Positions 27,085-33,240 of a stretch of 64,000 nt of DNA are shown one piece after another (position 1 is the first letter of the stretch; the number at the start of each line of letters is the position of its first letter). The stretch comes from Bacteroidetes bacterium GWF2_33_38 (GTDB lineage: Bacteria > Bacteroidota > Bacteroidia > Bacteroidales > GWF2-33-38): the NCBI GenBank assembly GCA_001769505.1, contig MEOF01000019.1, forward strand, positions 68,159 to 132,158, read 5' to 3'. The notes beneath the pieces were generated by a model that saw only the letters and a program-made list of their open reading frames with translations, was not told where the DNA came from and searched no databases. Both the position numbers and the translations under genes were made by a program.

Positions 27085-27885
27085 TTATGAAAAAAGGAGT
27101 TCAAAAAGTCCAAAAAGGTGCGATGTGTATAAAACAATAATTATAACCAACATCCATCGAATAATATTCGCTCCCCAAGTAACAGCAAATTGAGAAGCAA
27201 TGTATCCTCCAAAAACATTTCCAATTGCAGAAATAAGTCCCATTCCATATTCAACTTGGTTGTTGTACATAAAAATAGCTAATGCAAATGGGCTATAAAG
27301 CAGCACAATAAAAACTTTTAATGCATTTGCTTTTACCAAATCATATCCTGCATTTAAAACCAATGCGGCAAGTAAAAATATTCCAACACCAATATGAATA
27401 AAACCACCATAAACTCCAATTACAAAAAAAATCAATAACTGTATGTAGGTTGGTTTACGCTTAACTTTATCAAGTCTTCCTTTTATCCATTGGTCTGGAT
27501 TGTAAAAAATGAAAAAGAGCATCAGTATCATTACAAATCCGACGATTAGTTCAAATATGTTTTTATTCAGGCTTATAGCAATTTGAGCACCTACAATTGA
27601 GCCAATTACAGTTGGAATTCCTAAAATAATTCCCTTTTTTATGTCAAGTACATTTTGTTTTTTAAAATTCAGCGATGCTGCAAGAGTTTGCAGAATTACT
27701 CCTAACCGGGTAGTTCCGTTTGAGATACCCGGAGGCAATCCAAGCAAGATGAAAAAAGAATACGATATTATGGTTCCACTTCCTGCAATGGTATTAATAA
27801 TTCCAACTAAAAACCCTGAAAAGATTAATAGTGCAATAATTTGCCAGCTAAAAATGTCGTATGACGATAAAAACTCTACAATCAT
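27085..27885 (-). CDS. TauE/SafE-family anion exporter
   Basis: It is a polytopic membrane protein of about 266 aa with an internal duplication and glycine-rich TM segments (INTIAGSGTII, YGGFIHIGVGIF). Confidence 0.65.
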   Translation of the reverse strand: MIVEFLSSYDIFSWQIIALLIFSGFLVGIINTIAGSGTIISYSFFILLGLPPGISNGTTRLGVILQTLAASLNFKKQNVLDIKKGIILGIPTVIGSIVGAQIAISLNKNIFELIVGFVMILMLFFIFYNPDQWIKGRLDKVKRKPTYIQLLIFFVIGVYGGFIHIGVGIFLLAALVLNAGYDLVKANALKVFIVLLYSPFALAIFMYNNQVEYGMGLISAIGNVFGGYIASQFAVTWGANIIRWMLVIIIVLYTSHLFGLFELLFS

Positions 27886-28194: not shown

Positions 28195-29406
28195 ATGAGA
28201 ACAGTTATAACATTACTCTTAATTCTTTCAACTTTAATTAGTTTTAGTCAAACAGCTAAAAATTTTGAAGAATGGAAAAAATATTTCAAAGACAATATCT
28301 CAAATATCGACAATATCGAAGGAATCTATAAAACAACTTGGTATACTATAACATACTATGATAATGAATTGCTTTCTAAAACTGCTGACAATACAATGGA
28401 GATTTTCGGACCTTATACCGTTGTTGTCAAAATTAGTGAAGGAGAATATATGACTTATATGGTAAGTATTGGTGGTAGTGCTGAACAGTATAAAATCTCG
28501 CAAACATATTTAAGTAATAAATTCATTAAGAAAAACGATAAGCCAACAGGAACCTATTGGGATAACCCACAAATTAACTATTCTGATGGTCAATTCAATT
28601 TCATACATAACATTAATTCTGAGGAGATATTAAATGATTATATCCGAATAAATAATGAAAGTCGGAACAGATCAGATATGTCAACATTGCAAATGATGAC
28701 TTCTCGTACAAAAAGAATAGTCGAAATAGAAATGTTAAAAATATACCCAACTAAAGAAATGATAATAAAATCATTAGAAGAAAATAAATCGGTTACCGGC
28801 ACAGGTTTTGCAATTTCTTCGAATGGAATAATTGTTACCAACTATCATGTTATTGAAAATGCAAAAGAAATAAAAATTAGAGGTGTAAATTCCGACTTTA
28901 ATAAAACATATATAGCAAAAGTTCTTAATTCAGATAAGAATAATGATATATCTTTACTTAAAATAGAAGATAATAATCTTGATTTAGGAATAATCCCTTT
29001 TGTTATTAAAACAGAACTTTCAGAAGTCGGAGAAAATGTTTATGTATTAGGTTATCCTTTACTTGCGTCAATGGGTGATGAAATTAAATTAACAAGTGGA
29101 ATAATAAGTTCTAGAACGGGTTTTCAAGGAGACATCACTTCTTATCAAATTTCAGCACCAGTACAACCTGGTAATAGTGGAGGTCCCGTATTTGATAGTA
29201 ACGCAAATATTATTGGAATTATAAATGCTAAACATACTGGTGCAGAAAACGCTTCATATTCAATCAAAGCAAATTACATTATGAACCTTATAGAATTGCT
29301 ACCTCAAAAGCCAACGTTGCAATCATCCAATTTATTAATCAACCTGCCTTTAACAAAGCAAGTTGAAAAATTAAAGAATTATGTGTTTATCATCGAAGTC
29401 AATTGA
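28195..29406 (+). CDS. Secreted trypsin-like serine protease (S1C/PF13365-type) with an unrecognised N-terminal domain of about 200 aa
   Basis: The signal peptide is MRTVITLLLILSTLISFSQT. The catalytic triad contexts are TNYHVIEN, NNDISLLKI and GNSGGPVFD. The track ORF starts at an upstream TTG. Confidence 0.75.
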   Translation: MRTVITLLLILSTLISFSQTAKNFEEWKKYFKDNISNIDNIEGIYKTTWYTITYYDNELLSKTADNTMEIFGPYTVVVKISEGEYMTYMVSIGGSAEQYKISQTYLSNKFIKKNDKPTGTYWDNPQINYSDGQFNFIHNINSEEILNDYIRINNESRNRSDMSTLQMMTSRTKRIVEIEMLKIYPTKEMIIKSLEENKSVTGTGFAISSNGIIVTNYHVIENAKEIKIRGVNSDFNKTYIAKVLNSDKNNDISLLKIEDNNLDLGIIPFVIKTELSEVGENVYVLGYPLLASMGDEIKLTSGIISSRTGFQGDITSYQISAPVQPGNSGGPVFDSNANIIGIINAKHTGAENASYSIKANYIMNLIELLPQKPTLQSSNLLINLPLTKQVEKLKNYVFIIEVN

Positions 29407-29421
29407 ATTTAATAAATAAGA

Positions 29422-29751
29422 GTGAAAAAATATTTTGAATACGTTAATTTTGAGCTGCTTAACAAGTTTTGTCAAGTTAAGCAACTTATAAAAAAGCACA
29501 ATCCAACAATTGAGACTTTGACAGAAGAAATTTTAAGGGCTTTTCTTAAAAATTATTTGCCCAGAAGAGTTAGTATTGAACAAGGCTTTATTCTTTCAAA
29601 GGATGGAGAAATGTCTCGACAATGTAACATTCTCATATATGACTCAAATTTATTTGCTCCGTTTTATAGAATAAATGATATTGTCATTGTTCCATCAGAA
29701 TCTGTCAAAAAATCGCCTGCAATCCCTTACTGGCCTTACCGACAACGTTAG
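29422..29751 (+). pseudogene. 3'-truncated DUF6602-like (PD-(D/E)xK-type) gene remnant
   Basis: LRAFLKNYLPRRVSIEQGFILSKDGEMSRQCNILIYDSNLFAPFYRINDIVIVPSESV matches my memory of the DUF6602 N-terminal half (..FL..yLP....v..G.v.d..G..S.Q.DivIyD...P......PvEsV). The reading frame then runs into a GC-rich element (KKSPAIPYWPYRQR*) instead of the expected xxIEVKS. The start is GTG. Family assignment is from memory. Confidence 0.55.
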
Positions 29752-29753
29752 GC
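29714..29753 (+). repeat. GC-rich element A upstream of the DUF3800 gene, ending in the attC-core-like GTTAGGC
   Basis: The sequence is GCCTGCAATCCCTTACTGGCCTTACCGACAACGTTAGGC. It contains the hairpin GCCTTAC/GTTAGGC (29733-29753) and a CCTTAC direct repeat. It aligns by hand to element B (31611-31646). Confidence 0.5.
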
Positions 29754-29770
29754 AAAGTTGAACAAAATTG

Positions 29771-30526
29771 ATGAAAACAAATTACTTTTACATTGATGAA
29801 ACTGGACATATTAACAATGATGAACCGATATTTGCTTATGGTTGTATTAAAACTGATACGCCTAAATTAATTGAAAAAGTATTAGAAGAATTAAAAGAGG
29901 AATTAGCAGAAGACTCTTTATTGGCAAAATTTGGAGAAAAAATATTAAAAAACAACTTTCACGCAACAGAAGACCATTTTGATGCAAGGACACAATTTTA
30001 CAGAATATTACCATTACTTAATTATAGAGCCTATTTTATAGTTTTATTTAAAAATGATGATTATTTCAAAAGGTTGAAAAAAGAAAATGCAGACCATGAA
30101 ATAATCAAATCAATGTTACTTAAAATAATTAAGCCCAGAATCACAAGAAATAGGGGTGATAAAAATGTTTTTTATATTGAGACACTAGAAGTTCAAAATA
30201 AATCATTAAAAGCAATTGTTGAAGAAATTTTCAATATCTTTAAAGATGATTATAATGTTGAGTACTCTATTGTAGACAAACATTGTCAAAATATGCCCAT
30301 AGTCGATTATTTATGTTTTATCTTAAATAAAATTTTTGTACAAAAGGAAAATGAAAATAAGACTATTGATGAATGGGTTACGAGAACATTTGAAACACTA
30401 CAGGATAAAATTGCATTGATTCATTTTCTAAATGAAGATAGTTTTTTCAGTAGACAAGCACCTAAAGACAAACAAATTGAACTAAACAATCTAAAATTAA
30501 AAAGGCAGTGTATTAAGGATAAATAA
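29771..30526 (+). CDS. DUF3800-domain protein (candidate retron effector)
   Basis: The N-terminal YFYIDETGHI resembles the DUF3800 hallmark (y.iDESG). The C-terminal MPIVDYLCFILNKIF resembles the family LQ.AD..a motif. It lies 23 nt upstream of the RT gene on the same strand. Confidence 0.65.
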   Translation: MKTNYFYIDETGHINNDEPIFAYGCIKTDTPKLIEKVLEELKEELAEDSLLAKFGEKILKNNFHATEDHFDARTQFYRILPLLNYRAYFIVLFKNDDYFKRLKKENADHEIIKSMLLKIIKPRITRNRGDKNVFYIETLEVQNKSLKAIVEEIFNIFKDDYNVEYSIVDKHCQNMPIVDYLCFILNKIFVQKENENKTIDEWVTRTFETLQDKIALIHFLNEDSFFSRQAPKDKQIELNNLKLKRQCIKDK

Positions 30527-30549
30527 TAGGATACGAGTCGTATTCGACA

Positions 30550-31584
30550 ATGAAACAAATCAATTCTTCTTACCTTAATCACTGCTATTTTATTATGTCA
30601 CACAAAAAAATAGATACTGTCAAAAAACTTTCAAATTTCCTTAATATTGAAAAAGAAATATTATCGGAATTATCCAAAAATGATTATATCATAATTGAAA
30701 GAAATAATAGTTCAACAGATATATTAAATAATGTTCTAACTGTAGAAAAAATAGAAATTCCTAAAAAAAGTGGCGGATTTAGGGTTGTATATTCTCCATC
30801 TTCAGATAATTTAACTAATTGCTTAAAAGTACTAAACTCAAAACTAAGAAAAATATATGTACCGTCTTCTTGCGTTCATGGCTACATTAAGGGTCGTGGT
30901 ATAAAAACTAATGCTTCTGAACACTTAGGGAAACAATATATTTTAAAAGTTGACATCGAAAATTACTTCGAAAAAATTACAAAAGAAAGGATTATTAAAT
31001 CACTAAATAATTTAGGCTTTCAGAATGAGATAAGCTCTTTAATTGCTAAAATAACAACTCATAATAATGTACTCGTACAGGGATTCCATACAAGTCCTAC
31101 TTTAGCAAATATCATCTTTCATGAATTAGATTTAATATTTTCAAAATTTACAAACGCTAGCTACACAAGGTATGCCGATGACCTATACTTTTCATCAAAA
31201 GAAGAAATTGACATTCTGTCAAAAGTAGAAGAACAACTGTTGAAATTTGGGTTCACAATTAATAAGTCAAAAATAAAATTGATGAAACGAGGTCAAAAAC
31301 AGTATGTTACTGGTTTAACTGTTTTCGATAATAAGAAACCGAGAATATCTAAGAATAAGAAAAAGGAAATTCGTCAACAAATGCACTACATTAATAGGTA
31401 TGGATATAAAGGACATATTATGCACGAATTTGGTATTTCCAATGAAGAGTATTTAAACAATGATGAAATTAAAGAAAACGTGGACTACAAAATTCATGAA
31501 TTAAAAACAAAGATTAAAGGTTGGCTATTATTTATAAACTCAATTGAACCTGAATTTAGTAAAAAATATATTACCCTAAAATAA
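30550..31584 (+). CDS. Retron-type reverse transcriptase
   Basis: RT motifs present: IPKKSGGFRVVYSP (1/2), KVDIENYF (A), VQGFHTSPTLANII (B), YTRYADDLYFS (C) and INKSKIKL (D). The retron-specific signatures are TNASEH (NAxxH) and QYVTGLTV (VTG). An alternative start lies at 30595 (MSHKK). Confidence 0.85.
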   Translation: MKQINSSYLNHCYFIMSHKKIDTVKKLSNFLNIEKEILSELSKNDYIIIERNNSSTDILNNVLTVEKIEIPKKSGGFRVVYSPSSDNLTNCLKVLNSKLRKIYVPSSCVHGYIKGRGIKTNASEHLGKQYILKVDIENYFEKITKERIIKSLNNLGFQNEISSLIAKITTHNNVLVQGFHTSPTLANIIFHELDLIFSKFTNASYTRYADDLYFSSKEEIDILSKVEEQLLKFGFTINKSKIKLMKRGQKQYVTGLTVFDNKKPRISKNKKKEIRQQMHYINRYGYKGHIMHEFGISNEEYLNNDEIKENVDYKIHELKTKIKGWLLFINSIEPEFSKKYITLK

Positions 31585-31588
31585 CTCT

Positions 31589-31646
31589 GCCTAATAAATA
31601 GGAATATGAGCGGTCTGCAAGACCCTGCGGATATTACGAGTTAAGC
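31589..31646 (+). repeat. GC-rich element B: a 58-nt imperfect palindrome just after the RT stop, attC-like (GCCTAAT...GTTAAGC)
   Basis: Pairings seen: 31589-95 with 31640-46, AATAT/ATATT (31603-07 with 31631-35), GC/GC (31610-11 with 31627-28) with a CT bulge, and GGTCT/AGACC (31612-16 with 31620-24) closing a triloop. GTTAAGC fits GTTRRRY. Confidence 0.5.
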
Positions 31647-31742
31647 TACATCGTTTCATTTACAACGCATCAGACATTAAACGAAATATGAATATTTCCA
31701 ATCTTCTACAAAAACCGACCGAACTATTGAAATTAAAAATTG

Positions 31743-31786
31743 TTAATTGAAGATTAAAATTGACATTCCACTTTACAAACTTTTTA
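31743..31786 (+). repeat. Dispersed AT-rich repeats at the right edge of the island
   Basis: TTAATTGAAGATTA (31743-31756) is identical to 21601-21614, the right flank of the four-helix-bundle cassette. ACTTTACAAACTTTTTA (31770-31786) is identical to 18921-18937. Confidence 0.8.
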
Positions 31787-31921
31787 AACTTTCAACTTTA
31801 ATCAGGCTCATCATAAATCGTTGTTCATTATTCGTGAAATGTATTTTTTATTATTAGCACAAAAGATAGCCGAACGAACGATTATCTTTAGACAGCTATT
31901 GTAAAAAAAATATTCTTTAAG

Positions 31922-31980: not shown

Positions 31981-33240
31981 ATGAGTTTAGAACCAAAAAA
32001 ACTTGCAATTTTAGTCGCAGGCGGACCCGCACCAGGAATTAATAGTGTAATAAGTGCCGCAACCATTCGGTCTATTTTATCAGGGACTCCTGTTGTTGGA
32101 ATACTAGATGGCTTTAAATACATAATGAAAGGCGATATTACCCATATCATAAAAATGAATATTGAAGATGTTAGTCGAATTCATTTTAGAGGAGGTTCGT
32201 TTTTAGGAATTGCTAGAGACAATCCAACAAAAGATCCAAAACACCTAGAGAATACGATTACATCGTTGTTGCGACTAAACGTTACAAAACTGATTACAAT
32301 TGGCGGTGACGATACTGCATATTCGGCATATCGTCTTGAGCAAATGGCGGCTGGAAGAATCACTGTAGTTCATGTTCCAAAAACAATCGACAACGATTTG
32401 GACTTACCTCATGGTATTCCAACTTTTGGATTTCAAACAGCTAGACACGTTGGCGTTGAGATAGTTAAAAATATAATGACCGATGCACAGACTACGTCTC
32501 GTTGGTATTTTGTGATAAGCATGGGACGCAAAGCAGGACATTTAGCTCTTGCAATAGGAAAAGCAACTGGTGCTACTCTAACTCTTATTCCTGAAGAATT
32601 CCCAACTGAAAAAATATCGTTAAAACAAGTTGTTGATATATTAGTTGGTTCAATCATAAAACGATTGAGTTATGGAAAACAAGATGGAGTAGCCGTATTG
32701 GCCGAAGGACTTGTCGAACATATGGATCCTAAGGAGTTAAGTGAACTTGTTCATGTTGAAAAAGACGACCACGACAATATCAGATTAGCAGAAGTGAATT
32801 TTGGTGAAATACTTAAGATTCATGTTCAAAAAAGATTAGTTGAATACGGAATCAAGGTTACCGTTGTTGCTAAAAATATTGGCTATGAATTAAGATGTGC
32901 CGATCCAATTCCGTTTGATATGGAATATTGTCGAGATTTAGGCTATATGGCTTCTAAGTTTTTGCAAGAAGGCGGTAGTGGAGCTTTGGTTTCGATGCAA
33001 AATGGAGATTTTGTGCCGATGTATTTTAAAGATATTTTGGACAAAAATACTGGTCGCATGAAAATCAGAATGGTTAATAAAAAATCACCATCGTACGAGG
33101 TTGCACGACAGTACATGATTCGATTGGTTAAAGACGATTTTAACGATCCGAATGAATTAGCAAAATATGCGGCCACTGCAAATATGTCGTTAGATGATTT
33201 CAGAGAACGATACGAATATTTAGTAAATGAAAATTCGTGA
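31981..33240 (+). CDS. pfp: Pyrophosphate-dependent 6-phosphofructokinase
   Basis: This is a PFK-family protein (GGPAPGIN). The diagnostic residues for PPi rather than ATP dependence are GGDDT (Asp, not Gly) and PKTIDND (Lys, not Gly). Confidence 0.8.
   Translation: MSLEPKKLAILVAGGPAPGINSVISAATIRSILSGTPVVGILDGFKYIMKGDITHIIKMNIEDVSRIHFRGGSFLGIARDNPTKDPKHLENTITSLLRLNVTKLITIGGDDTAYSAYRLEQMAAGRITVVHVPKTIDNDLDLPHGIPTFGFQTARHVGVEIVKNIMTDAQTTSRWYFVISMGRKAGHLALAIGKATGATLTLIPEEFPTEKISLKQVVDILVGSIIKRLSYGKQDGVAVLAEGLVEHMDPKELSELVHVEKDDHDNIRLAEVNFGEILKIHVQKRLVEYGIKVTVVAKNIGYELRCADPIPFDMEYCRDLGYMASKFLQEGGSGALVSMQNGDFVPMYFKDILDKNTGRMKIRMVNKKSPSYEVARQYMIRLVKDDFNDPNELAKYAATANMSLDDFRERYEYLVNENS

What the first reader, a model, noticed from the sequence alone, without database searches (positions are those of the whole stretch)
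29707..31646. The DUF3800-RT module is bracketed by two related GC-rich elements with integron attC-like cores
GTTAGGC (29747-29753) lies 17 nt upstream of the DUF3800 ATG. A 58-nt imperfect palindrome, GCCTAAT...GTTAAGC (31589-31646), begins 4 nt after the RT stop. GTTAGGC and GTTAAGC both fit the attC core GTTRRRY. GCCTAAT is one base off the inverse core RYYYAAC, and 58 nt is in the size range of short attC sites. The palindrome has bulged bases (CT at 31625-26) and internal loops, like folded attC sites. The two elements are by eye the most GC-rich stretches of the island. They align by hand as direct repeats (shared CTGCAA..CCCT..C.GG..TTAC.GA..GTTA.GC; roughly two thirds of aligned positions match, with a few gaps). 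A module that starts TTAGGC, has a short leader and ORFs, and ends in an attC-like site has the layout of an integron gene cassette. No integrase is present in the window, so it would be a CALIN-like or orphan cassette. A perfect mini-palindrome GCTTAAC-12 nt-GTTAAGC also occurs at 29457-29482. Alternative readings are att sites of another site-specific recombination system, pieces of the retron ncRNA, or, for element B, simply a terminator-like hairpin.
Basis: partly seen in the sequence, partly recalled or inferred. Interest (0 to 1): 0.7.

Follow-up and report, generated by a model that had tools for sequence, protein, structure and literature searches.

The report
Orphan integron-type cassette carrying a retron
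The DUF3800 and reverse-transcriptase gene pair is a type VII-A2 retron whose two ends carry the matching end sequences of an integron-style mobile gene cassette, stranded here without a recombinase, and relatives sit in real cassette arrays in Bacteroidota, a phylum where integrons are thought to be almost absent.

Summary
The real signal is an inverted repeat, GTTAGGCAAAGTT (29747-29759) against AACTCTGCCTAAT (31583-31595), that brackets the DUF3800-RT operon exactly. PADLOC identifies the operon as a retron type VII-A2.

In 14 cassettes from independent loci, four or five of them not retrons, the cassette's first bases (G|TTRRRY plus about 7 nt) complement its own last bases (about 7 nt plus RYYYAAC). 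A permutation test gave 0 of 100,000. In arrays (L124, L005, L103, L112, L109, L098) these ends belong to inter-cassette palindromes with an R''-L''...L'-R' layout. This is the signature of a G|TT crossover in integron cassettes.

In the window the cassette is a relic. R'' reads AAT instead of AAC. B is at best a decayed 58-nt attC. Only the last bases of A can be assigned. There is no other site and no recombinase in 64 kb. No IntI was seen near any array. Instead, a module of an IS91 transposase plus a Xer-like recombinase abuts attC-like sites in three records.

Separately, a strongly covarying RNA structure lies between DUF3800 and RT (30504-30586). It is the likely retron ncRNA, which has not been described for this type.

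The parts
29747..29759 (+). 5' cassette boundary. R'-type core GTTAGGC (inferred crossover between G29747 and T29748) plus a 6-nt extension. Left arm of the inverted repeat.
   Evidence: The homologous arms in 13 other cassettes complement their own 3' arms. Homology with other retron loci begins here.
31583..31595 (+). 3' cassette boundary. Extension AACTCT plus R''-type inverse core GCCTAAT (AAC has become AAT). It overlaps the RT stop codon. Right arm of the inverted repeat.
31589..31646 (+). Element B, a 58-nt imperfect palindrome. Layout: R'' GCCTAAT, spacer, stem AATAT/ATATT, stem GC, stem GGTCT/AGACC with a CT bulge, then R' GTTAAGC. Probably a decayed short attC.
   Evidence: Fold. When joined to the cassette's 5' end as in an excised circle, it forms one continuous hairpin. 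Similarity to the L081 attC remnant is only z=1.5. It is missed by model R1.
29707..29746 (+). The rest of element A: 40 nt of unassigned DNA between the break in the DUF6602 gene and the cassette start. It may be the L'-side remnant of the preceding attC.
   Evidence: DUF6602 homology ends at 29706. CCGACAAC|GTT resembles CCGAGACC|GTT and CAACAAC|GTT of the L124 elements. There is no significant similarity.
29771..30526 (+). DUF3800 effector gene of the retron type VII-A2.
   Evidence: PADLOC DUF3800_VII, 2.1e-97. Pfam DUF3800.
30504..30586 (+). Candidate retron ncRNA. A long closing stem (GGCAGTG/CACTGCT and TTAAGGATAA/TTACCTTAA) spans the DUF3800 stop codon and encloses the conserved hairpin GGATACG-AGT-CGTATTC (30529-30545).
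   Evidence: Alignment of 24 loci. RNAalifold finds double compensatory changes at 15 of 21 pairs. No Rfam hit.
30595..31584 (+). Retron reverse transcriptase gene, 329 aa.
   Evidence: PADLOC RT_VII-A2, 6.2e-151. Identical to P0001.
29422..29751 (+). Truncated DUF6602 / NucC-like PD-(D/E)xK gene. Only the N-terminal 95 codons are homologous. It is a remnant of the neighbouring upstream unit.
   Evidence: Pfam DUF6602, profile positions 8-76 of 104. PADLOC NucC, positions 8-100 of 244.

Best explanation
The DUF3800-ncRNA-RT operon is a retron type VII-A2 carried on a gene cassette of the integron type. Shown: its first bases (G|TTAGGC plus extension) are the reverse complement of its last bases (extension plus GCCTAAT). 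The same holds for homologous retron cassettes and for unrelated neighbouring cassettes in arrays elsewhere. There, these ends are the R' and R'' boxes of imperfect palindromic inter-cassette elements. Inferred: such cassettes are excised as circles and reinserted by a tyrosine recombinase that cuts between G and TT of the folded site. This carries TTRRRY to the front of the cassette and explains why each cassette's two ends match each other and not its neighbour's. In this genome the cassette is a fossil. R'' has mutated to AAT. The downstream site (B) is short and off-consensus. The upstream site is truncated together with the DUF6602 gene. No second site or recombinase lies within 64 kb. 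The retron is therefore probably fixed in place between tauE and pfp and is probably transcribed by read-through from the co-oriented upstream genes.
For: Retron identity. Boundaries: the alignments show that similarity between window, L081, L085 and L087 starts at TTAGG and stops at CCTAA. Own-end complementarity: in 14 cassettes, 6.43 of the 7 variable positions match (about 3.9 for mismatched pairs in the first 14-cassette set), and a permutation test gave 0 of 100,000. Four clear non-retron cassettes are included (L124c1, L005c2, L103c1, L103c2; the last two match 10 of 10); a fifth, L098c2, shows a decayed 6-of-8 match and was not counted among the 14. A sixth non-retron case is the DUF3592 cassette in L134. 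Arrays: 12 tabulated elements have an invariant AAC|A...C|GTT and L''/L' stems about 3 and 6 nt from the cores. Their lengths are 66-139 nt, with one of 241 nt. The fixed-register pairing peaks at slide 0, 65.9% against 25-42%. All cassettes are co-oriented, and the cargo is typical of cassettes: MNT-HEPN, SIMPL, DUF1398, DUF1801, a protease. The flank downstream of the closest relative, L081 (85% RT identity), is homologous to the L124 attC (z=8.4). A simulated excised-circle junction of the window cassette folds into one hairpin with a 12-bp R stem. At arm position 11 there is an A.C mismatch on the top strand, equal to a G.T pair on the bottom strand, in 10 of 14 cassettes. This fits the bottom-strand folding known for attC (my own knowledge).
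Against: No integron integrase was found in the window or within the 3-10 kb held around any array. The recombinases that are adjacent (L124, L119, L134) are Xer-like, lack the IntI-specific insertion and score below the TIGR02249 cut-off. B's R'' is AAT, and its L stem has spacers of about 7 and 4 nt rather than about 3 and 6. B and A are not found by model R1, whose best window hits lie elsewhere at E>3.8, or by any Rfam family at E<=10. R1 is crude, though: it also misses its own 130-nt training elements. Several cores do not fit RYYYAAC/GTTRRRY strictly (AGCCAAC, GTTGCCC). To my knowledge the 13-14-nt arms and the 240-400-nt inter-cassette repeats (L103, L098) are outside the described attC range. 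Only about 12 of about 28 distinct VII-A2 loci show the arms.
Confidence: 0.68

Rival explanations
1. The ends are recombination sites of a cassette system that is not run by a classical integron integrase. A Xer-like tyrosine recombinase, as found paired with an IS91-family transposase beside the arrays, would recognise arms built from two GTTA motifs 10 nt apart. The window cassette would then be a relic of that system rather than of an IntI integron.
For: In L124, L119 and twice in the Tenacibaculum plasmid L134, a recombinase plus IS91 transposase module lies directly against an attC-like site. Its conserved end ...GGATTAGTTCAAC is followed at once by the attC interior. Its other end, AACTAAGC..., is preceded at once by a cassette R''. 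The joined ends would form the palindrome TTAGTT-CAAY-AACTAA, which resembles the cassette arms. No IntI was seen anywhere. IntegronFinder 2.0 reports almost no integrons in Bacteroidetes (PMC9024848).
Against: The module looks like an insertion into the R'' box of pre-existing sites. It has two defined ends and occurs as tandem copies each interrupting a site. Classical attC sites are also targeted by specialised insertion sequences and introns (my own knowledge). The L005 array starts next to a sulfatase gene with no such module. Only short flanks were available, so IntI could lie further away.
Confidence: 0.2
2. The inverted repeat is a retron feature: an a1/a2-like pairing between the 5' and 3' untranslated regions of the operon transcript. 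A and B would be pieces of the retron ncRNA.
For: The arms covary and bracket the operon exactly. Mestre et al. 2020 found no ncRNA for clade-4 RTs (PMC7736814), so an unusual arrangement was conceivable.
Against: The same arms flank non-retron cassettes. The conserved mismatch is A.C on the mRNA strand and G.T on the other strand. A separate, strongly covarying structure that fits an ncRNA lies between DUF3800 and RT. Many VII-A2 loci, including L083, L089, L090, L093, L125 and L126, lack the arms although the retron genes are intact.
Confidence: 0.04
3. Nothing functional is present. The cores are chance matches in AT-rich DNA, and B is only a hairpin at the end of the operon acting as a terminator or stabiliser.
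For: B's fold has z of about -1.2. The extended motifs are not enriched in the window. Relaxed core pairs occur as often as in Markov shuffles, 12 against 14.4.
Against: Positional conservation and own-end covariation across 14 cassettes. No T run follows B and there is no terminator call. Homology boundaries coincide with the cores.
Confidence: 0.05

Closest known systems
Integron gene cassettes and attC sites, including CALIN (clusters of attC sites lacking an integrase) and single stranded cassettes
   Same: One gene or operon per unit with a short leader, and all units co-oriented in arrays. Units are separated by imperfect palindromes that begin ...AAC and end GTT... and have inner L''/L' stems. 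The first 6 bases of each cassette complement its own inverse core, as a G|TT crossover predicts. Size is variable and sequence conservation is low. Cargo includes toxin-antitoxin and defence genes.
   Different: No IntI was found. The arms are 13-14 nt with conserved outer motifs (TAACT / AATTA) beyond the 7-nt cores. Cores are looser than RYYYAAC/GTTRRRY. Spacers are about 3 and 6 nt. Some inter-cassette elements are 240-400 nt long. The hosts are Bacteroidota. In the window only one decayed site and one half-site remain.
Anti-phage defence cassettes of sedentary and mobile integrons (bioRxiv 10.1101/2024.07.02.601686 and 10.1101/2024.07.02.601719)
   Same: A compact defence system carried as an integron-type cassette.
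   Different: Those studies concern Vibrio and other Pseudomonadota. Neither text reports a retron cassette, and one notes Bacteroidota as a clade previously without integrons.
Retron type VII-A2 (Mestre et al. 2020, PMC7736814)
   Same: An RT of clade 4 with a separate DUF3800 protein encoded immediately upstream. Both genes give top PADLOC hits.
   Different: No ncRNA had been defined for this clade. A conserved structure is found here between the two genes. The cassette context had not been noted.
attC-targeting mobile elements (IS1111-attC insertion sequences, group IIC-attC introns; from my own knowledge)
   Same: The element carrying an IS91 transposase and a Xer-like recombinase sits inside the R'' box of attC-like sites in L124, L119 and L134.
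   Different: The transposase family is different and a tyrosine recombinase is added. The element is not present in the window.
pdif (Xer) modules of Acinetobacter plasmids (from my own knowledge)
   Same: Gene modules bracketed by inverted recombination sites, with Xer-type recombinases implicated.
   Different: pdif modules share single 28-bp sites with an XerC arm, a spacer and an XerD arm. Here each junction is a 60-130-nt palindrome with two boxes, and no dif-like arm, 6-nt spacer and arm could be read in the arms.

Membership tests
Integron gene cassette / attC | Core site GTTRRRY at the cassette start and inverse core RYYYAAC at the start of its attC | tested here: inconclusive
   In the window GTTAGGC fits, while GCCTAAT is one base off because the invariant C is T. 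Relatives fit (GCCTAAC, CGCTAAC) or are looser (AGCCAAC, GTTGCCC). AAC and GTT are invariant in 12 of 12 tabulated elements.
Integron gene cassette / attC | The cassette's own 5' TTRRRY complements its own R'', the signature of a G|TT crossover | tested here: met
   In the window 6 of 7 variable positions match. Across 14 cassettes the mean is 6.43 of 7, and a permutation test gave 0 of 100,000. The upstream element's R'' does not match the R' it abuts (L109, L124, L112).
Integron gene cassette / attC | Imperfect palindrome with inner L''/L' boxes, an unpaired spacer and a variable central part | tested here: met
   This holds for the array elements. L112_dn has an extra G in the L'' strand. 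B has stems AATAT/ATATT, GC/GC and GGTCT/AGACC with a CT bulge, but atypical spacers.
Integron gene cassette / attC | Recognition by the IntegronFinder attC covariance model or HattCI | not testable with these tools
   Neither program is available. Substitutes were used. Rfam 15, which per PMC5737381 holds a motif that matches class 1 attC, gave no hit at E<=10 and no gathering-level hit in 18 loci. The homemade model R1 found the L109 elements and, independently, L096 2523-2596 (E 0.07), but not B or A.
Integron gene cassette / attC | Size within the described range of roughly 57-141 nt (my own knowledge) | tested here: inconclusive
   B is 58 nt. Array elements are 66-139 nt, but L103 has elements of about 241 nt and L098 repeats of about 330-400 nt.
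Complete integron | An IntI integrase with its specific extra domain next to attI and the array | tested here: not met
   There is none in the window. The recombinases next to the L124, L119 and L134 arrays score 148-177 bits against the TIGR02249 cut-off of 265 and lack about 48 residues in the region of the IntI insertion. The flanks held are short, so absence from the genomes is not shown.
CALIN (at least 2 attC sites, no integrase) | Two or more attC sites clustered without an integrase | tested here: not met
   The window has one decayed site (B) and at most a half-site at the end of A. The extended end motifs occur no more often than chance elsewhere in the 64 kb. L005 and L103 do meet the description.
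Retron type VII-A2 | A clade-4 retron RT with a separate DUF3800 protein encoded next to it | tested here: met
   RT_VII-A2 6.2e-151 and DUF3800_VII 2.1e-97. The same gene pair is present in all related loci.
Retron type VII-A2 | An associated structured ncRNA (msr-msd) and msDNA synthesis | tested here: inconclusive
   A conserved covarying structure lies at 30504-30586. Its role as template and primer, and msDNA production, cannot be tested here.

The most novel reading that the evidence does not exclude
Flavobacteriia and related Bacteroidota may carry a cassette-array system that works like an integron but is not run by a classical IntI. Its sites would have extended arms built from two GTTA motifs one helical turn apart. 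Its partner would be a Xer-like tyrosine recombinase travelling with an IS91-family transposase. Type VII-A2 retrons would be one of its mobile cargoes, and the window would hold a fossil of such a cassette.
Probability: 0.2. Interest if true: 0.8.

Novelty: new variant of a known kind. Interest (0 to 1): 0.58.

Why it matters
Three consequences follow if the reading holds.

1. It adds retrons to the defence systems that travel as integron-type cassettes, and it explains how type VII-A2 retrons reach unrelated genomic contexts.
2. It points to cassette arrays with attC-like sites in Bacteroidota, where genome surveys report almost no integrons. Either current attC and IntI detectors under-call this phylum, or a different recombinase does the job. 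Both can be tested directly on a cultured Tenacibaculum plasmid.
3. The analysis also yields a candidate ncRNA for a retron type that had none. That ncRNA is needed to study the type's mechanism or to use it as a DNA-writing tool.

Tried and rejected
- **A/B direct repeat.** Local alignments with two scoring schemes plus shuffles showed chance-level similarity.
- **Strict pattern scan.** RYYYAAC...GTTRRRY with enforced AAC/GTT pairing returned nothing useful, because many cores are looser than the pattern.
- **Rfam.** The whole window at gathering thresholds, the island at E<=10, and 18 loci gave only a tRNA in L093.
- **Homemade covariance model.** R1, built from 12 end-trimmed array elements, is too weak. 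It recovers only short elements and gives no credible window hit.
- **Empty-site comparison.** All 16 contigs with the identical pfp carry the same island. The 88% relative L133 has a different upstream neighbour, so only the start of native pfp-side DNA (31897) could be fixed.
- **Search for IntI.** A motif regex, phmmer with two integrases, and NCBIfam on four recombinases found only Xer-like or Bacteroidetes-type integrases.
- **Wider collection scans.** The genome-contig scan with an RT profile was swamped by generic YADD motifs and returned only 6 close loci. The viral-contig scan with DUF3800 found nothing.
- **Shared neighbour cassette.** The window protease and the L005 protease cassette are only 26% identical.
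- **Island-flanking repeat.** The repeat at 28215/31779 lies in the protease signal peptide and is probably chance.
- **Literature.** No paper in the held library describes a type VII ncRNA or a retron carried as an integron cassette.
Full report
**What is in the region.**
The window is identical to a contig of the MAG "Bacteroidetes bacterium GWF2_33_38". Between tauE (27085-27885, minus strand) and pfp (31981-33240) lie four co-oriented genes:
- a secreted trypsin-like protease (28195-29406);
- a truncated DUF6602/NucC-like nuclease gene (29422-29751), in which only codons 1-95 are homologous;
- DUF3800 (29771-30526);
- a reverse transcriptase (30595-31584).

PADLOC assigns the last two to retron type VII-A2 (DUF3800_VII 2.1e-97, RT_VII-A2 6.2e-151). 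Mestre et al. 2020 defined this type and reported that no consensus ncRNA could be found for its RT clade (PMC7736814).

**Checking the observation.**
- A and B are the two most G+C-rich 50-nt stretches of the island (0.46 and 0.48).
- B folds with the CT bulge at 31625-31626.
- The mini-palindrome at 29457-29482 exists.

The claim that A and B align as direct repeats does not hold. The best local alignment scores 7.0 against a shuffle mean of 6.8. With a more lenient scheme A matches nothing above chance. B's fold alone is unremarkable (z about -1.2).

**What the two cores are.**
Aligning the flanks of the closest retron loci (RT identity 67-85%: L081, L085, L087) gives a sharp picture. Similarity with the window begins at (G)TTAGG upstream of DUF3800 and ends at CCTAA(C/T) just after the RT stop.

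These two conserved stretches are reverse complements of each other. In the window they are GTTAGGCAAAGTT (29747-29759) and AACTCTGCCTAAT (31583-31595).

Across loci whose RTs are only 37-46% identical, the inner bases differ but change together. Examples are GGTATA/TATACC, GCGGTA/TACCGC, GGGAGA/TCTCCC and GGCAGC/GCTGCC. For 14 cassettes the own-end match is 6.43 of 7 variable positions; in the first 14-cassette comparison the own-end match was 6.36 against about 3.9 for mismatched pairs. No permutation out of 100,000 reached the observed value.

**Why this is a cassette feature and not a retron feature.**
Several relatives lie in arrays of co-oriented genes separated by imperfect palindromes.
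- In L124 the order is: element, 499-aa (called as 507-aa) ORF, element, retron, element, next ORF.
- L005 has at least five cassettes after the retron.
- L103 has four cassettes separated by repeats of about 241 nt.
- L112, L109 and L098 behave likewise.

Twelve such elements were tabulated.
- All begin ...AAC|A and end C|GTT....
- They have complementary inner stems about 3 nt after AAC and about 6 nt before GTT.
- They measure 66-139 nt, with one of 241 nt.
- Scored in a fixed register, pairing peaks at the proposed register (65.9% against 25-42% when slid).

The R'' at the start of an element does not match the R' at its end. Instead R' matches the R'' at the far end of the cassette that follows. 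This holds for non-retron cassettes as well:
- L124c1: GTTGGCT/AGCCAAC;
- L005c2: GTTAGCTGT/ACAGCTAAC;
- L103c1 and L103c2: 10 of 10 each;
- the DUF3592 cassette in a Tenacibaculum plasmid.

This is what a crossover between G and TT predicts for integron cassettes (established integron biology; my own knowledge). The cargo also fits: MNT-HEPN, SIMPL, DUF1398, DUF1801 and a trypsin-like protease.

**State of the cassette in the window.**
- *Right end.* R'' reads AAT rather than the invariant AAC. B (58 nt) has the box, spacer, stem, variable-tip layout and ends in GTTAAGC. Joined in silico to the cassette's 5' end, as in an excised circle, it forms one hairpin with a 12-bp R stem.
- *Weaknesses of B.* Its spacers (about 7 and 4 nt) differ from the array consensus. 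Its interior resembles the attC remnant of its closest relative L081 only weakly (z=1.5). That remnant itself is clearly homologous to the L124 element (z=8.4). A covariance model built from the array elements does not find B. The model is crude, however, because it also misses its own long training elements.
- *Left end.* A starts exactly where DUF6602 homology stops (29706/29707). A deletion has therefore probably fused the nuclease gene to the middle of the preceding site. Only ...CCGACAAC|GTTAGGC resembles the L' side of array elements.
- *Rest of the window.* No other copy of the end motifs exceeds chance in the 64 kb, and no tyrosine recombinase is detectable.
- *Population and outer limit.* All 16 contigs of this population carry the identical island. 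Native pfp-side DNA starts at 31897. The origin of 31647-31896 is unknown.

**Rejected alternatives.**
- *Retron ncRNA pieces.* A different element fits that role. A structure spanning the DUF3800 stop codon and the spacer before RT (30504-30586) is conserved in 24 loci, with compensatory double changes at 15 of 21 pairs. The arms, in contrast, also flank non-retron genes and are absent from many intact VII-A2 loci.
- *Terminator.* B has no T run and no terminator call.
- *Chance.* Positional conservation and covariation exclude it.

**What remains open: the recombinase.**
No IntI was seen, although only 3-10 kb around each array could be read.

In three independent records a tyrosine recombinase followed by an IS91-family transposase lies directly against an attC-like site. 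The records are L124, L119 (recombinases 44% identical) and two copies in Tenacibaculum finnmarkense plasmid CP116296.1.
- The recombinase scores 148-177 bits on the integron-integrase model, whose cut-off is 265.
- It lacks the stretch where IntI carries its specific insertion.
- The module has two defined ends placed inside the R'' box...GGATTAGTTCAAC | attC interior and cassette R'' | AACTAAGC....

This looks like a site-specific insertion into pre-existing sites. The alternative that this enzyme services the arrays cannot be excluded.

IntegronFinder 2.0 found almost no integrons in Bacteroidetes (PMC9024848). The two recent papers on defence cassettes in integrons do not report retron cassettes.

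**Differences from textbook attC.**
- The arms are 13-14 nt, not 7.
- They have conserved outer motifs (TAACT.. / ..AATTA) that make each arm look like two GTTA motifs 10 nt apart.
- Arm position 11 is A against C on the top strand, which is T against G on the bottom strand, in 10 of 14 cassettes. The bottom strand therefore folds better.
- Some inter-cassette elements are 240-400 nt. In L098 they contain a Bacteroidetes-type promoter motif (the promoter reading is my inference).

**Verdict.**
The finding is real in its core. The retron is bounded by the matched end boxes of an integron-type cassette and is an orphaned relic in this genome. The A/B repeat is not real, A is mostly unassignable, and B is at best a decayed site.

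I rate it a new variant of a known kind, with interest 0.58. The most novel reading not excluded is an IntI-independent cassette system in Bacteroidota, at probability 0.2.

Noticed in passing
window 30504-30586 (+): A conserved, strongly covarying RNA structure spans the DUF3800 stop codon and the spacer before RT. It consists of a closing stem, the near-invariant hairpin GRATAYGA-n-CGTATYC and a conserved single-stranded stretch. It is a likely ncRNA of type VII-A2 retrons, for which none had been reported. It has no Rfam match.
   Followed up: partly
L124 2-1947; L119 713-2778; L134 5711-7734 and 8974-10958: A Xer-like tyrosine recombinase plus an IS91-family transposase forms an element whose two ends sit inside the R'' box of attC-like sites. 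The joined ends would form the palindrome TTAGTT-CAAY-AACTAA. It is either an attC-targeting insertion sequence or the recombinase of the arrays.
   Followed up: partly
window 28195-29751 (+): A secreted trypsin-like protease is followed after 15 nt by the N-terminal 95 codons of a DUF6602/NucC-like nuclease. This is probably the remnant of another defence-type unit, cut off exactly where element A begins. GTTGAAAATAGTAA, 8 nt before the protease ATG at 28195, resembles a cassette 5' end.
   Followed up: partly
window 29457-29482: The perfect palindrome GCTTAAC-12 nt-GTTAAGC lies inside the conserved coding part of the DUF6602 fragment. Its core equals B's R' (GTTAAGC). It is the only perfect pair of this kind in the 64 kb. 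Whether it is chance or has a function is undecided.
   Followed up: partly
L098 2638-2913, 4952-5227, 6053-6328; L103 895-1136, 1869-2135: Inter-cassette repeats of about 240-400 nt, far longer than usual attC sites, still end in ...C|GTTAG. The L098 repeat contains a TTTG...TAnnTTTG promoter-like motif just before the next cassette.
   Followed up: no
window 31647-31896: This 250 nt between B and the start of pfp-side native DNA (31897, by comparison with L133) has no ORF, no assigned origin and no match to the cassette end motifs.
   Followed up: partly
L126 7831-11080 (Zhouia spongiae CP094326.1); L083 1-6000: The same retron type also occurs without cassette arms in two other contexts: next to a Bacteroidetes-type integrase with an Arm-DNA-binding domain, and inside a mobilisable element carrying a relaxase. 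The module therefore moves by more than one route.
   Followed up: no
L085 5292-5923; L081 2216-4015 and 6301-10990: Close relatives of the window retron sit in defence islands. Neighbours include an AAA_15 ATPase, type I restriction-modification genes, GmrSD, and split Cauli_VI/RNase H ORFs.
   Followed up: no
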